A stretch of 11,611 bases of DNA, taken from a virus. Its lineage: Duplodnaviria; Heunggongvirae; Uroviricota; Caudoviricetes. This document shows, piece by piece, positions 6,001 through 11,611 of this stretch. The position numbers were made by a program. The stretch lies in IMG/VR virus record IMGVR_UViG_2872185964_000001; one strand, given 5' to 3'. Every line of letters starts with the position of its first letter. The stretch's first letter is position 1.

Positions 6001-9000
6001 GGGCGGCAAGGAATAAACAACAAAACGTGAAGTAATATTTCAGCTGGCGAATAATACCCCATAGTAATCACTCTGCGCAACTGCGCGGTCTTTTTCGAAT
6101 TGCGGGCTGTCGTCTCTCTTCTGCCATTGTCCTGTAACTTCCGGACTTCAGCCCGCTCCTCATTTTACTCACAATATTATCCCGGCCGGGAGGATTCATG
6201 GCTTTTAAACACTATGATGTTGTCAGGGCGGCGTCGCCGTCAGATCTTGCGGAAAAGCTGACACATAAACTGAAAGAGGGCTGGCAGCCGTTTGGTAGTC
6301 CGGTGGCCATAACCCCTTATACTCTGATGCAGGCGATTGCAGCAGAAGGTGCAGTAATCAGCGCCACCAGCGACCCGGAGTATTACTTTGTTGTGGTTCT
6401 GGCAGGGCAGTCAAACGGCATGTCGTATGGTGAAGGCCTTCCGCTGCCGGGACATATGACCGTCCGGACCCGCGTATTAAGCAACTGGCGCGTCGCAGTA
6501 CGGTGACACCGGGCGGTGCAGCATGCAAATATAACGACATCATTCCGGCGGACCATTGTCTGCATGATGTGCAGGACATGAGCCGTCTTAACCATCCGAA
6601 AGCGGACCTGTCAAAGGGGCAGTACGGAACCGTGGGGCAGGGGCTGCATATCGCCAAAAAACTGCTGCCGTTTATACCGGCGAATGCGGGCATTCTGCTG
6701 GTTCCATGCTGTCGTGGTGGTTCAGCGTTCACCACCGGAGCTGATGGCACATACAGTGACGCGAGTGGTGCCTCGGAGAATTCAACCCGCTGGGGTGTGG
6801 ACAAGCCGCTGTATAAGGACCTTATCGGTCGAACAAAAGCGGCACTGGAGAAGAACCCGAAAAATGTGCTGTTTGCCGTGGTGTGGATGCAGGGGAATTT
6901 GATTTTGGCGGTACGCCGGCAAATCATGCCGCACAGTTTGGTGCGCTGGTTGATAAATTCCGTGCAGACCTGGCGGATATGGCAGGCCAGTGCGTCGGTG
7001 GCTCTGCTGGCGGTGTTCCCTGGATATGCGGGGACACGACGTATTTCTGGAAGCAGAAGAACGAATCCACGTACCAGACGGTGTACGGCAGCTATAAAAA
7101 TAAAACGGAAAAGAATATCCATTTCGTACCGTTCATGACCGATGAGAACGGGGTGAATGTGCCGACGAACAAACCGGAAGAAGACCCGGACATTCCGGGT
7201 ATCGGTTATTACGGTTCGAAATGGCGTGACAGCTCAGCCACCTGGACGTCACAGGACAGGGCGAGCCATTTCAGTTCATGGGCTCGCCGTGGGATTATTT
7301 CCGACCGTCTGGCAACGGCGATTCTGAGCTGCGCGGGTAAGTCTTCTGCGTTTGTTAATGGTACTGCCGGGGTGGTTGTTCCAGACAGGCCGGTTACCAC
7401 CTCAGAGTCTGTAATTTTTTACGATGCCAAAAAAGCTACAGACAATCAGCTGAAACCTTATGGCTGGGACGGTATGTATGGCAGACGCACACTGGTTGAT
7501 GACAGCGGCAATAAAGCTCTGCGAATTGAGAAAAATAACAGCTCGAAATCCTGGTCAATGTACTGTGAGGTGTACTGGCAATAGCGGACACTACCATTTG
7601 TTCTTTTTTTAAGCAGCCATCTGATGATATTTTTCCCTGAAGGCTGCCGGGGAGATATTCCCCAGACGAGAGTGACGACGCTGACGATTGTAGAAAATCT
7701 CAATGTATTCCCGTATTACTGAGATGGCTTCATCCCGGTTATTAAAACGATAGTGGCTCAGGCTCTCATTTTTCAGCGTTCCCCAGAAGCTTTCCATCGG
7801 AGCGTTGTCGTAACAGTGACCTTTACGCGACATTGATGTTTTCAGACCAGACTGCTCCTGTATGACCCGGTAATCGTATGCGCAGTACTGTGAACCTCGA
7901 TCAGAGTGGTGGATTAGCCCGGCAGGTGGGCGCTGGCTCCTGAGCGCCATAAACAGGGCTTTACCTGTCAGCTCTTTTGTCATGCGCTCTCCCATGGCGT
8001 AGCCGACAATTTCGCACGTATAAACATCTTTGATGCCAGCGAGGTACAACCATCCCTCCTGTGTGGCAACATACGTCAGGTCCGCCACCCAGACCTGATT
8101 TGGTGCTGTAGGAGCGAACGTCTGGTTCAGCAGATTTGGCGCAACTGGCAGATTGTGGTTCGGGTTCGTAGTCGCTCTGAACTTGCGTTTCTGCTTACAG
8201 CGTAGCCTTAGCTCCTTACGAAGACGTGCCAGTCGGTCACGACCAACGATGATGCCATTCTCTGCCAGCTCCGTCTGGAGCCGCCGGGTTCCATATGTTT
8301 CGCGAGTGCGGATATGTGCCACCTTAATCTCCAGTTTTAGCCGCTCATCACTTTGTTTTCTGTCTGAGGGTTCATGCTGTACCCAGTTGTAATAACCGCT
8401 CCTGGATACACCAAATACCTGACACATCGCTTCAATGGGAAATTGTTGTCGCCATTGTTCGATTAACGCGTATTTTTCAGCGACTCCTGTGCAAAATACG
8501 CTGTTGCTTTTTTTAATATATCTCGCTCAAGGCGAGCTTCATTTAACGCCTTACGCAGTTGCAGAATTTCAGATTCCAGTTCAGCCACCGTGCGGGAACC
8601 AGGAGTACCGAGCCCTTTTCTGGCGGCGGTAACCCATTGTCCTAAAGTGCCTTCAGGAAGGGATAATCGGGAAGCGCCTTCACTGATCGAAAGTTGATTT
8701 TCAAGAACCGTTCTGACAGCTTCGGCTTTGAACTCTTTAGAGTAACGTTGGTTTTTTCTGCTCATTATTAGCTCCTTCTGATGCCATTCTATTTCAGGAA
8801 GGAGTGTCCGTTAAACTCAGGCTACCTCACTCCCTGGCGGATTTTTGCAGCGAATACAGCAACACAACCGGACGGGCAACGGCTACGCGCTTCGCGTTCC
8901 GTCCAGGCGGTTACGTGGATGATTTGAGATTCTCCGGCACTCAGTGCCAGAAAACGCCACACAAAGGCCGTTTGTGTGTGTACAAGGTGTGGTATATGAT

Positions 9001-11611
9001 TTACAGCAACCATAACGGCTCCTAGTTTACGTTGTTGGTTAGACGCCCCGTATGTGTTCCCAGCACTGCGGGGCGTTGCTCTTTGTATTTCAACAATCCT
9101 TTCGGTGTGTTTCATGTTATGAGCGCATGAAACACACGTCAAGGCTTTTTGTATTTCTTTTTTTGTGTATACTGAAACACACCGATGATTAGGAGTTTCA
9201 GAAATGGCAACGGCTAACAAAAACGCAAAATCACAACTGACAACTGTCAGAGTCCCACTAGATGTTATGCAAGGGATGGAATCCGTTAAGCTGGACGGTG
9301 AAAGCAATGCCGGATTTATCGTAACCGCCATGCGCGGAGAAATGGCCCGCCGCCAAGCAGAAGGCAGCGGAGAAAATCCCCTTGTGTCGTCACTGGATGC
9401 CCTGGCTAAGGTCGAACAAATCGGCATCAAAGCAGCCGAGGAGATCGGGCAACTCGTCACCGTCGCGCGTGAAGAACTCCAGCGACGCAAGGTCAAAGAG
9501 CATGAATAGCCAATATCAGCGCCATAGTTTGAGGAACGCAGGCGCATTGCTTTACAGGACAGCACCATGAGCGACACAGAATCAACCAAAACACCATCAC
9601 CAACTCGTAAGAGACGACGCAAAAATATAGCGCATGAACATGAATCAGAAAGATTCGCACCTTGTTCGTTTGCTCTTGAGAAATTCCTTAAAGAGCACAG
9701 GAAAAAGCTCTCGTTGCAAACCTTGGAACGAACCAAATCTGACTGATCACATTGCCCACCAGCCGCAAATGTGGCATTGTTGGTGATGCTTTTGTTTTCC
9801 CTTGTTCCCACTGGCGACCCTTTTGCGGTCGCCTTTGTTTTGTCACTGAATGCGGTTACCAAAGTAAAACTCAGGCTGATATTCACGTATCAGCGTTTTT
9901 TCTTCTTCCTCCTGCTCACGCTTTTTGCGCTTACATGCCTGTAGCTCCCTCCCCTTCTCGCTGGCACTTATTTGATATTGCTCTTTACGGCGGGAAAAAT
10001 CCTGTAATGCACCCCACGGGATACCATAAGTCCCCGTTTTTCTGATACCTGGTATCACATTTCTGAATACCCAGTTACTGAAACGATGAGCAAATGTGCC
10101 AGGCGTCGTTGCTTTGCGGCTGCGGGCTATTAGTTTGTAGAAACCTGACTCAGAGATAATTCTCATATTCTGATTTCCTCCTGGGGTGTAAGTTAAATTT
10201 ACTCCCTTTTCATCATCATCAAGCATCTGCAACGCCGTACGCGAATTGGTTAGTTCCAGCGCAGCACAAACATCTTTTGCAACAAACCACGGATCGCCGT
10301 TCAGATACACCACACGAACGTTCACACTATCAAAGCGCAGAACGACGAGATCACGAATATCGCAGAATTTTTTCACTGGACGAGCGTACCCCTTGCCCGT
10401 CACGGCAATATTTTTATTCATCGCGTTTTTACCTTATAGACAAAAAACCCCTCGTGATGAGGGGCATTATTTACTGGTTATTGCTGTTTTGTTTTTCCAG
10501 GTTTCCATCCAGGATGCCACTCACCACGGATCCATGCCTGAACCTCTGAAAGTCGATACCCTGCAGCACGTTCACCGATCTTGATACGTCGCGGGAATTT
10601 ACCTGCCTGCTCCATTTTCCAGCGTGTTGAGTTTGCCAGCGTGGTAAGTGCTATGCACTCTTTTTCACGAATGAACCGATCAATGTCCTTCATTGTGCGC
10701 AAATCGTTTTCATCAACAAGAGAATAAATTGCCATATCACACCACCTCTTTATTAAGCTCGATAACGTTGTTGTTAAATCCTGCTATCGTATTAAGGTAA
10801 TTAACCCACATATTAAGCACCTCAAGTTTTTTCTTTATATGCCTGCTTTTATTGTAAACACCAGCAACCCCTTTCACTTTATGACCTAAAAGAAGTTCGG
10901 TAATGACTCCAACTTATTGATAGTGTTTTATGTTCAGATAATGCCCGATGACTTTGTCATGCAGCTCCACCGATTTTGAGAACGACAGCGACTTCCGTCC
11001 CAGCCGTGCCAGGTGCTGCCTCAGATTCAGGTTATGCCGCTCAATTCGCTGCGTATATCGCTTGCTGATTACGTGCAGCTTTCCCTTCAGGCGGGATTCA
11101 TACAGTGGCCAGCCATCCGTCATCCATATCACCACGTCAAAGGGTGACAGCAAGCTCATAAGACGCCCCAGCGTCGCCATAGTGCGTTCACCGAATACGT
11201 GCGCAACAACCGTCTTCCGGAGCCTGTCATACGCGTAAAACAGCCAGCGCTGGCGCGATTTAGCCCCGACGTATCCCCACTGTTCGTCCATTTCCGCGCA
11301 GACGATGACGTCACTGCCCGGCTGTATGCGCGAGGTTACCGACTGCGGCCTGAGTTTTTTAAGTGACGTAAAATCGTGTTGAGGCTAACGCCCATAATGC
11401 GTGCAGTTGCCCGGCATCCAACGCCATTCATGGCCATATCAATAATTTTCTGGTGCGTACCGGGTTGAGAAGCGGTGTAAGTGAACTGCAGTTGCCATGT
11501 TTTACGGCAGTGAGAGCAGAGATAGCGCTGATGTCCGGCAGTGCTTTTGCCGTTACGCACCACCCCGTCAGTAGCTGAACAGGAGGGACAGCTGATAGAA
11601 ACAGAAGCCAC

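What the first reader, a model, noticed from the sequence alone, without database searches (positions are those of the whole stretch)
8830..9013. Minus-strand small gene or leader RNA driven by the operator-controlled promoter, cut off by IS600
Downstream of the minus-strand promoter, reading leftwards, the transcript contains a GC-rich hairpin (ACGCCCCG…CGGGGCGT, 9042-9076), then a strong RBS (AGGAG, 5-nt spacer) and ATG at 9013. That opens an ORF (MVAVNHIPHLVHTQTAFVWRF…) which runs without a stop into the IS600 end at 8830. A weak AT-rich hairpin plus GCGTTTT (8951-8978) sits inside it. So this is either a gene whose 3' end was removed by IS600 (possibly the element's repressor or recombinase) or a structured leader/sRNA ending at an internal terminator, as in P4-type RNA-based immunity.
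Basis: partly seen in the sequence, partly recalled or inferred. Interest (0 to 1): 0.45.

Follow-up and report, generated by a model that had tools for sequence, protein, structure and literature searches.

The report
Satellite icd gene with antisense RNA
The small minus-strand ORF is a nearly complete copy of a known phage-satellite cell-division-inhibitor gene (icd) stranded by IS600, and the GC hairpin in front of it is best read as the terminator of an apparently undescribed small antisense RNA that would block icd translation.

Summary
The ORF 9013->8822 (-) belongs to the annotated Icd-like family (NCBIfam NF033153, E 1e-17). Intact E. coli homologues are 100% identical up to the IS600 junction. 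IS600 (7566-8829) changed only the last three codons (SHA* to R*, 65 to 63 aa). What it cut off is the rest of a PICI/P4-like satellite's replication operon. The exact 63-aa allele is on record in Shigella.

No P4-type C4/CI or isrK RNA is present, although Rfam finds both in P4 and in other icd loci. The hairpin 9042-9076 is conserved upstream of icd in about a fifth of complete E. coli genomes. It shows compensatory changes, but its wobble pairs are G.U only on the + strand (A.C on the icd strand), and it is followed by a T-rich tail only on the + strand.

A conserved TTGTGT-17-TATGAT promoter (8972-9000, +) sits 6-9 nt before a second conserved stem-loop that carries the anti-Shine-Dalgarno sequence. 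I therefore predict an ~80-nt cis-antisense RNA (about 9006-9086, +) covering the icd SD and AUG. It would be a cis-encoded counterpart of the C4/CI immunity RNAs. Expression is untested. The gene is known; the RNA appears to be new.

The parts
8822..9013 (-). icd-like gene (host cell division inhibitor family). 63 codons plus a TAG stop. Codon 63 and the stop come from the IS600 terminal repeat; the ancestor has 65 codons ending ...GVSHA*.
   Evidence: NF033153 E 1.1e-17. Identical to the L001 CDS WP_001390072.1 up to 8826. The exact sequence is on record as a Shigella Icd-like protein in 62 contigs.
9019..9023 (-). Shine-Dalgarno AGGAG, 5 nt before the ATG at 9013
   Evidence: Sequence read.
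9114..9142 (-). P_icd promoter, TTGACG-17-TAACAT. Predicted start near 9107, giving a ~94-nt leader.
   Evidence: score 13.66, the best on either strand in this region.
9102..9185 (.). Operator-like repeats: TGAAACACAC three times (9105-9114 inverted, 9128-9137, 9173-9182). The inverted pair brackets the -10 of P_icd. The third copy lies at the divergent YlcI/YnfO promoter.
8972..9000 (+). Predicted promoter of the antisense RNA, TTGTGT(8972-8977)-17-TATGAT(8995-9000), inside icd codons 5-14.
   Evidence: PWM score 10.66, among the top 9 of 115,800 positions in the window. The same element is the top-scoring one in 68 of 69 distinct homologous variants.
9006..9086 (+). Predicted ~80-nt cis-antisense RNA, complementary to the icd SD, AUG and first two codons.
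   Evidence: Covariance model hit 9006-9085, 92 bits. + strand MFE -34.7, z -3.94.
9008..9040 (+). SL1 of the antisense RNA. The lower stem pairs the anti-AUG region (AACCAU) with the conserved GGUU. The loop carries the anti-SD CUCCU.
   Evidence: 17 of 17 distinct variants more stable on the + strand. helix 1 (99.6% paired; pair 4/37 GU 32, AU 25).
9042..9086 (+). SL2, an intrinsic-terminator-like hairpin (9042-9077) plus T-rich tail TGCTCTTTGT.
8948..8978 (-). Weak hairpin plus GCGTTTTCTG inside icd (codons HTQTAFVWRF). Probably incidental to coding. Its complement supplies the -35 of the antisense promoter.
   Evidence: Absent from other Icd lineages.
7566..8829 (-). IS600, 1264 bp, orfA 8765-8463 and orfB 8427-7609, co-directional with icd. 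No 3-bp target duplication.
9204..9509 (+). Divergent YlcI/YnfO-family gene, the candidate operator-binding regulator (inferred).
   Evidence: NF041551 E 6.5e-16. Annotation in L001.

Best explanation
The window holds the regulatory head of a PICI/P4-like phage satellite that has been reduced to a 2.07-kb remnant (8830-10899) between IS600 and IS1.

The minus-strand ORF is the satellite's icd-like gene. It is the first cistron of the replication operon, transcribed from an operator-flanked promoter. It is essentially intact: IS600 replaced its last three codons and severed the downstream genes (three small ORFs, DUF4222, primase and so on).

On the opposite strand, inside the icd 5' end, lies a compact small-RNA gene:
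- a promoter (TTGTGT-17-TATGAT);
- a 5' stem-loop that presents the anti-Shine-Dalgarno sequence;
- a GC-rich terminator hairpin with a U-rich tail.

The ~80-nt RNA is perfectly complementary to the icd SD and AUG.

Proposed mechanism. The antisense RNA pairs with the leader of leaky P_icd transcripts and blocks icd translation. By analogy with P1 c4-icd-ant and P4 CI-kil, this would expose the untranslated, C-rich leader to premature termination and so keep the toxic Icd and the replication genes silent. Strong induced transcription from P_icd would out-titrate the RNA.

Shown here: the gene family, the junction, the strand-specific conserved structure, and the in-silico promoter and terminator.

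Inferred: that the RNA is expressed, that it represses translation, the polarity on downstream genes, and the identity of the operator-binding protein.
For: Gene identity:
- NF033153, 63.8 bits.
- PGAP annotation in intact loci with the order int-alpA-BroN-YlcI/YnfO-icd-...-primase-capsid-terS.
- P4's old 'cI ORF' carries the same domain.
- P1 Icd inhibits cell division and sits in the c4-icd-ant operon (PMC8198154). P4 Kil/Eta context comes from PMC10111431.

Junction: 100% identity to L001 up to 8826, then the IS600 repeat.

Absence of C4/isrK: (L001 and EDL933 also negative), with positive controls.

Antisense RNA:
- 29 distinct hairpins are 98% paired on the + strand, including 34 G.U cells. 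The same pairs are 88% paired with 0 G.U on the icd strand. Three pairs show double compensatory changes, and the covariation score is 0.284 against 0.144 +/- 0.013 (0/500 shuffles).
- With 57 distinct sequences aligned to a covariance model, 99% of cells pair and G.U occurs at 8 of the 18 pair positions.
- The 10 nt after the hairpin on the + strand hold 4-8 T in all 39 variants. The icd strand has CTAACCAACAAC there instead.
- TATGAT or TATGCT is present in 69 of 69 variants, 6-9 nt before the base of SL1. It is the top-scoring promoter in 68 of 69 and in the window.
- SL1 is more stable on the + strand in 17 of 17 variants, SL2 in 33 of 35. Window z-score is -3.94 on + and -1.21 on -.
- The module is kept intact where the icd ORF itself is truncated (L007, L072).
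- The mosaic boundary with variable promoter modules lies right after the T tail.
Against: - There are no expression data: no TSS, Northern or RNA-seq result was available.
- The -35 matches only 3 of 6 positions. In one Icd lineage it is absent and only a TG-extended -10 remains.
- The window's own U-tract is interrupted (UGCUCUUUGU).
- The promoter and SL1 lie in or next to coding sequence, so part of their conservation could come from protein or RBS constraints.
- The homologues are closely related and recombining, so the number of independent substitutions is limited (about 8 pair positions with wobble).
- Alignment A6 was fitted to the model's structure.
- RNAalifold on the MAFFT alignment recovered SL2 but not SL1.
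- The C4-class control regions occasionally reach similar promoter scores (maximum 11.15).
Confidence: 0.68

Rival explanations
1. Same-strand RNA regulator. The minus-strand leader is itself a P4/P1-type processed immunity RNA, or an attenuated sRNA ending at the internal hairpin 8978-8948.
For: P4, P1 and many icd loci do carry such RNAs upstream of icd. A terminator-like site is called at 8978-8948.
Against: C4, c4-a1b1 and isrK are not found in the window even at E<=10, nor in the intact relative L001. The internal hairpin is made of the codons HTQTAFVWRF and is lost in other Icd lineages and in P4. The leader hairpin has A.C mismatches on this strand wherever the other strand has G.U. The minus-strand fold is not better than shuffles.
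Confidence: 0.07
2. The hairpin acts only in the icd mRNA, as a 5'-UTR stabiliser, processing site or translational operator. In this reading the mirror of SL1 sequesters the AUG, and no separate antisense RNA exists.
For: The complementary hairpins necessarily form in the mRNA as well (MFE -25.4). The mirrored SL1 would pair the AUG region with CUAACCAAC.
Against: All wobble positions are A.C on this strand: 0 G.U against 34 in A3 and 8 pair positions in A6. Both stems are consistently less stable on this strand. There is no explanation for the A-rich run upstream, which is the T tail on the other strand.
Confidence: 0.12
3. The + strand hairpin is a terminator that merely insulates the regulatory region and the YlcI/YnfO promoter from stray antisense transcription. 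It has no dedicated promoter and no regulatory RNA.
For: The terminator features are the best-supported part. The promoter is only predicted.
Against: In intact elements every gene upstream on that strand points the other way, so nothing needs terminating. A conserved promoter-like element lies at a fixed 6-9 nt from SL1 in 69 of 69 variants. SL1 shows its own strand-specific wobble pairs.
Confidence: 0.1
4. The inverted repeat is a DNA-level protein-binding site or cruciform.
For: It is a GC-rich inverted repeat in a regulatory region that contains other operators.
Against: The arms covary instead of keeping one sequence (AU<->CG, CG<->GC, GC<->CG). The strand asymmetry of wobble pairs is meaningless for duplex DNA. 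The loop is variable in length and sequence.
Confidence: 0.03

Closest known systems
Phage P1/P7 immI operon: C4 antisense RNA - icd - ant (Rfam RF01695; Citron & Schuster 1990 and Riedel et al. 1993, as cited in PMC8198154)
   Same: An icd-family small ORF is the first cistron behind a repressed promoter. An antisense RNA targets the icd translation-initiation region. Icd inhibits host cell division. icd translation gates the downstream genes.
   Different: C4 is encoded upstream on the same strand, is processed from the leader, and pairs through short loop sequences. Here the RNA would be transcribed from the opposite strand, have its own promoter and terminator, and be fully complementary. 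C4 is absent from the window. The downstream genes are replication genes, not ant.
Satellite P4 immunity: CI RNA / seqA-seqC with kil (the C-terminal part of eta) ahead of alpha (primase)
   Same: Same gene family (P4 ORF 8168-8584 hits NF033153). Same position at the head of the primase operon. RNA-based silencing of that operon (PMC10111431).
   Different: P4 uses isrK-like seqA plus the C4-type CI RNA. The window has neither. It has a divergent protein gene with operators, plus the predicted cis-antisense RNA. Many satellites stack both modules in tandem.
Phage P22 immI sar RNA - ant (own knowledge)
   Same: A short cis-antisense RNA, made from a promoter inside the operon, overlaps the RBS of a gene in an immunity region and represses its translation.
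   Different: Unrelated sequence and a different target gene (ant, not icd). This is a resemblance recalled from memory and was not tested here.
Type I toxin-antitoxin pairs with 5'-overlapping antisense RNA, such as SymR/SymE (own knowledge)
   Same: A small growth-inhibiting protein whose SD and AUG are covered by a constitutively made, structured ~80-nt cis-antisense RNA.
   Different: Icd is not a hydrophobic membrane peptide. The gene is the first cistron of a long operon. No addiction function is known.

Membership tests
Icd-like host cell division inhibitor (NCBIfam NF033153) | Profile HMM score above the curated cut-off (25 bits) over the 48-residue domain | tested here: met
   63.8 bits, E 1.1e-17, residues 17-60 covering profile positions 1-48 of 48. 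The domain is untouched by IS600.
Icd-like host cell division inhibitor (NCBIfam NF033153) | Located at the head of the early/replication operon of a P4-like or PICI satellite, or of an immI-type operon | tested here: met
   The intact relative L001 has icd followed by 3 small ORFs, DUF4222, primase, SSB, capsid and terS. The same arrangement is seen in E2348/69, RM8352 and EDL933.
Icd-like host cell division inhibitor (NCBIfam NF033153) | Expression blocks cell division (filamentation) | not testable with these tools
   Known for P1 Icd (PMC8198154). The AF2 model has low confidence (pLDDT 64.7) and Foldseek found nothing with E<0.1.
C4 / P4 CI antisense RNA (Rfam RF01695, clan CL00128) | Covariance-model match at or above 45 bits upstream of icd on the same strand | tested here: not met
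   No hit in the window at E<=1 or in 8800-9260 at E<=10. Positive controls score 69-82 bits in P4 and nine other loci.
isrK / seqA leader (Rfam RF01394) | Covariance-model match at or above 50 bits between the promoter and C4 | tested here: not met
   Searches are negative. It is found in P4, L003, L007, L128 and others.
Rho-independent terminator (for hairpin 9042-9077 on the + strand) | GC-rich stem directly followed by a U-rich tract on the transcribed strand | tested here: met
   An 8-11 bp GC-rich stem with 4-8 T in the next 10 nt in 39 of 39 variants. The window's tract is interrupted (6 of 10 T). The simple scanner missed the hairpin because its loop exceeds 8 nt.
Cis-encoded antisense sRNA | Own promoter giving a discrete transcript that overlaps the target | tested here: inconclusive
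   An in-silico promoter is conserved in 68 of 69 variants. There are no transcript data.
Cis-encoded antisense sRNA | Conserved secondary structure selected on the antisense strand | tested here: met
IS600 (IS3 family) | 1264-bp element with terminal inverted repeats and orfA/orfB | tested here: met
   7566-8829 is 1264 bp with TGAGG... repeats. IS3 transposase HMM hits. RefSeq names the matching features IS600.
IS600 (IS3 family) | 3-bp target-site duplication of a simple insertion | tested here: not met
   The flanks are CTG and CTC, and the left flank is an unrelated lambdoid prophage. This points to an IS-mediated rearrangement or deletion.
Gram-negative PICI / helper-embedded satellite | int - alpA - Bro zone - replication (primase) - late genes, in that order | tested here: met
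   Complete in L001. The window keeps only int' (54 codons), alpA (PF05930), Bro-N (PF02498), YlcI/YnfO and icd.
Type I toxin-antitoxin | Small hydrophobic membrane toxin | tested here: not met
   The sequence has no stretch long enough to span a membrane. The AF2 model is beta-beta-alpha-beta.

The most novel reading that the evidence does not exclude
The hairpin-plus-leader module is a widespread, unrecognised family of cis-antisense 'immunity' RNAs of Escherichia/Shigella satellites, present in roughly 1,200 of 5,426 complete E. coli genomes. It would be the cis-encoded alternative to C4/CI. It gates icd translation and, through polarity, satellite replication. It falls into discrete pairing types (SL1 variants a-e) that could act in trans between co-resident or incoming satellites. 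It is retained, still functional, in decayed remnants such as this Shigella locus and in truncated icd' copies.
Probability: 0.3. Interest if true: 0.65.

Novelty: new variant of a known kind. Interest (0 to 1): 0.5.

Why it matters
The gene itself is ordinary and already annotated.

What would matter is the RNA. Satellite immunity in P4 and P1 is the textbook case of RNA repressors (CI, C4) acting on the icd/kil leader. Here a large group of PICI-type satellites lacks those RNAs yet keeps a strand-specifically conserved small-RNA gene over the same target. That suggests convergent, modular RNA control of one regulatory node, icd translation.

It is directly testable with one Northern blot or a re-read of existing strand-specific RNA-seq. 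It would also add a missing family to RNA annotation of E. coli and Shigella genomes. Finally, it would explain why the icd 5' region is preserved even where the ORF is truncated.

Tried and rejected
- Rfam on the whole window and, with lax filters, on 8800-9260 found nothing relevant on either strand.
- The genome-contig scan with the Icd alignment gave only 3 loci because the peptide patterns were too narrow. The viral and metagenome scans supplied the diversity instead.
- A tblastn search of phage records gave one hit, vB_KppS-Ant, where the Icd domain is the C-terminus of a 324-aa ORF.
- RNAalifold on the MAFFT alignment recovered SL2 but not SL1, because indels misalign the loop. SL1 therefore rests on per-sequence folds and on the model-fitted alignment.
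The second gave a low-confidence model (pLDDT 64.7). Foldseek against the PDB gave only E>0.1 matches to superoxide dismutase fragments, which I treat as meaningless.
- The long in-frame extension of icd up to 9886 (354 aa) has no Pfam hit and runs antisense to the well-supported YlcI/YnfO gene, so I rejected it as the true gene.
- An alternative + strand promoter, TTTACA-17-TAGTTT (9000-9028, score 9.96), is not conserved in other variants.
- Seven literature searches, including exact sequence strings, found no description of an antisense RNA at icd in PICIs or P4-like elements. That is absence from the searched library only.

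
Full report
**1. What is in the sequence**

Reading the minus strand from 9250 shows, in order:
- a promoter, TTGACG(9142-9137)-17-TAACAT(9119-9114);
- a GC-rich hairpin (arms 9076-9069 and 9050-9043);
- AGGAG (9023-9019), five bases, and ATG at 9013.

The ORF has 63 codons and ends at TAG 8824-8822. The scanner calls that promoter as the only sigma-70-like site in 8826-9260. It also calls a weak hairpin plus GCGTTTTCTG at 8978-8948.

**2. The gene**

The ORF hits NCBIfam NF033153 'host cell division inhibitor Icd-like protein' with 63.8 bits against a cut-off of 25 (E 1.1e-17), and the whole 48-residue domain is present. 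Megablast against complete E. coli genomes finds many chromosomes 99.9-100% identical from window 8826 rightwards.

In strain CFSAN018748 (L001) the annotated gene order is:
- integrase, AlpA-type HTH, BRO-N protein;
- YlcI/YnfO (opposite strand);
- Icd-like (65 aa), three small ORFs, DUF4222, primase, SSB;
- major capsid, decoration protein, HTH, small terminase.

This is a capsid-encoding PICI-type satellite embedded next to prophage late genes, the kind described in PMC10111431.

The pairwise alignment shows that identity ends inside ...GGAGTGAG. The ancestor continues TCATGCTTAA (V-S-H-A-stop). The window continues GTAG... from the IS600 terminal repeat (V-R-stop). So only two residues are lost and one is changed. 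The C-terminal tail is also variable among homologues.

The exact 63-aa sequence is on record as an Icd-like protein of Shigella boydii / 'MULTISPECIES Shigella' on 62 contigs. The allele is therefore established in a Shigella lineage.

**3. What IS600 really did**

IS600 spans 7566-8829, which is 1264 bp with TGAGG... inverted ends. Its IS3-family orfA and orfB are co-directional with icd. The flanking triplets differ (CTG and CTC), and the left flank belongs to a lambdoid prophage late region. The IS therefore marks a rearrangement or deletion, not a simple insertion.

On the right, identity with L001 stops at 10899, inside the integrase gene, and an IS1 begins there. The satellite is thus reduced to 8830-10899: int' (54 codons), alpA, bro-N, ylcI/ynfO, the switch region and icd. 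The whole replication and packaging part is gone.

**4. No P4-type RNA here**

Rfam finds nothing in the leader on either strand. The same search finds isrK (seqA) and C4 (CI) in P4 itself, immediately upstream of the Icd-like domain of the old 'cI ORF'. It also finds them in many other icd loci.

The window's intact relative L001 and the EDL933 element also lack them. Icd loci therefore fall into at least two leader classes: isrK-C4-icd and hairpin-icd. Many satellites carry both in tandem, as hairpin-icd1, then C4, then icd2 about 300 nt downstream.

**5. The hairpin is a conserved, movable module**

Blastn with the 121-nt leader hits 1193 of 5426 complete E. coli genomes. The common core is the hairpin with about 10 nt on each side. 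It is joined to different promoter/operator modules upstream and to different Icd lineages downstream. I fetched 160 further loci from viral and metagenome collections. They gave 69 distinct versions of the region and 39 distinct hairpins.

**6. Which strand?**

Three independent features point to the + strand, antisense to icd.

(a) *Wobble pairs.*
- In 29 distinct hairpins, 98% of pair cells are standard on the + strand, including 34 G.U cells. On the icd strand each of these becomes A.C, giving 88% paired and 0 G.U.
- Three pairs show double compensatory changes (AU/CG, CG/GC, GC/CG). Covariation exceeds all 500 shuffles and all slid controls.
- With 57 distinct sequences aligned to a covariance model, 99% of cells pair and G.U occurs at 8 of the 18 pair positions. 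That alignment is fitted to the structure, which should be kept in mind.

(b) *T tail.* The hairpin is followed by a T-rich tail only on the + strand, with 4-8 T in 10 nt in 39 of 39 variants, for example CGGGGCTTTGCTTTTTT. On the icd strand it is followed by CTAACCAACAAC.

(c) *Folding energy.* The + strand RNA 9003-9088 folds to -34.7 kcal/mol (z -3.94, 0/200 shuffles). The icd strand reaches -25.4 (z -1.21).

In intact elements no gene on that strand lies upstream.

**7. A complete small-RNA gene**

All 69 variants carry TATGAT or TATGCT in icd codons 5-7, and in most lineages TTGTGT lies 17 bp upstream. In the window this is 8972-8977 and 8995-9000. With a simple sigma-70 matrix it is the best + strand site in the region and among the nine best of 115,800 positions in the window. 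It is the best site in 68 of 69 variants; one lineage replaces the -35 by a TG-extended -10.

Six to nine bases downstream begins a second stem-loop, SL1 (9008-9040). Its lower stem pairs the anti-AUG sequence AACCAU with the conserved GGUU, and its loop carries the anti-SD CUCCU. Five sequence lineages with different stems all form it. It is more stable on the + strand in 17 of 17 distinct versions, again through G.U pairs.

The predicted RNA runs from about 9006 to 9086 (81 nt; model hit 9006-9085, 92 bits). It is fully complementary to the icd SD, AUG and first two codons.

The module is kept intact where icd itself is reduced to a 24-25-codon stub:
- in L007, upstream of isrK-C4-icd;
- in L072 and others, as second copies.

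**8. Mechanism proposed**

Shown: gene identity, promoter and operator layout, the junction, and the strand-specific RNA structure.

Inferred:
- P_icd is held down by a protein that binds the three TGAAACACAC repeats. This is probably the divergent YlcI/YnfO-family product.
- Residual transcripts are neutralised by the antisense RNA, which occludes the SD and AUG.
- As in P1 c4-icd-ant and P4 CI-kil, an untranslated first cistron then leads to premature termination. Both the division inhibitor and the replication genes stay off (PMC8198154; PMC10111431).
- Induction gives a burst from P_icd that out-titrates the RNA.

In this window the circuit has nothing left to control but the near-intact icd and read-through into IS600.

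**9. The internal hairpin**

The 8978-8948 site consists of the codons HTQTAFVWRF. Its T-run is the invariant W-R-F. It is absent from the other hairpin-class lineage, from the C4-class icd genes and from P4. I regard it as incidental, although its complement supplies the -35 of the antisense promoter.

**10. Novelty**

The gene is annotated and known. I found no Rfam family and no paper describing an antisense RNA at icd in PICI or P4-like satellites. The library and Rfam are not exhaustive.

I class it as a new variant of a known kind: RNA control of the icd/kil leader, but cis-encoded on the opposite strand. It rests on comparative evidence only, and transcript detection is the decisive missing step.

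Noticed in passing
window 5459-5975: Three tRNA genes (5459-5531, 5542-5615, 5632-5705) are followed by sRNA STnc100 (5785-5975, 139 bits). This is the layout of a lambdoid prophage late region. Downstream matches are DUF1737, DUF6645 and SASA esterase genes, cut by IS600.
   Followed up: partly
window 7563-7568 and 8827-8832: IS600 (7566-8829) has no 3-bp target duplication (CTG versus CTC). It joins a lambdoid prophage to the satellite remnant, which implies an IS-mediated deletion or inversion rather than a simple insertion.
   Followed up: yes
window 10737-11611: Identity with the intact satellite stops at 10899, leaving only the last 54 codons of the integrase. An IS1 (InsA 11611-11336, InsB' 11291-10914) starts there and runs off the window.
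   Followed up: partly
window 8822-9886 (-): The icd reading frame stays open for 291 more codons upstream, through the leader, the promoter and the antisense of the YlcI/YnfO gene. It has no Pfam hit. In other elements (vB_KppS-Ant L006, E. ruysiae L004) the Icd domain really is the C-terminus of a long Eta-like ORF, so this could be a relic or could be chance.
   Followed up: partly
window 9082-9091 and 9148-9157; 9105-9114, 9128-9137, 9173-9182: An exact 10-nt direct repeat TTTGTATTTC occurs at the antisense-RNA tail and again in the divergent promoter region. There are also three copies of TGAAACACAC (operator-like), two of which bracket the -10 of P_icd.
   Followed up: partly
L005 (P4 X51522) 8330-8521: The Pfam Phage_ASH (PF10554) match in P4's old 'cI ORF' (residues 22-85) lies over the C4/CI RNA gene (8420-8507). 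'Ash family protein' annotations upstream of icd in E. coli therefore mark C4 RNA loci.
   Followed up: partly
L104, L110, L128, L132-L134, L072 and others: Satellites stack leader modules in series: hairpin-icd1 followed by C4-icd2 about 300 nt downstream, sometimes three Icd-like ORFs. Some have second antisense-RNA modules attached to 24-25-codon icd stubs 700-800 nt upstream.
   Followed up: partly
L007 2940-3000 (-): In the mosaic loci, the break between the icd stub and the isrK-C4 module falls right after the GCGTTTTCTGG hairpin of icd. That position would keep the whole predicted antisense-RNA gene, including its -35.
   Followed up: no
L004 1078-1146, L008 1100-1167: The Rfam int-alpA RNA motif is present in two related satellites but was not detected in the window, where the int-alpA junction survives.
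   Followed up: no
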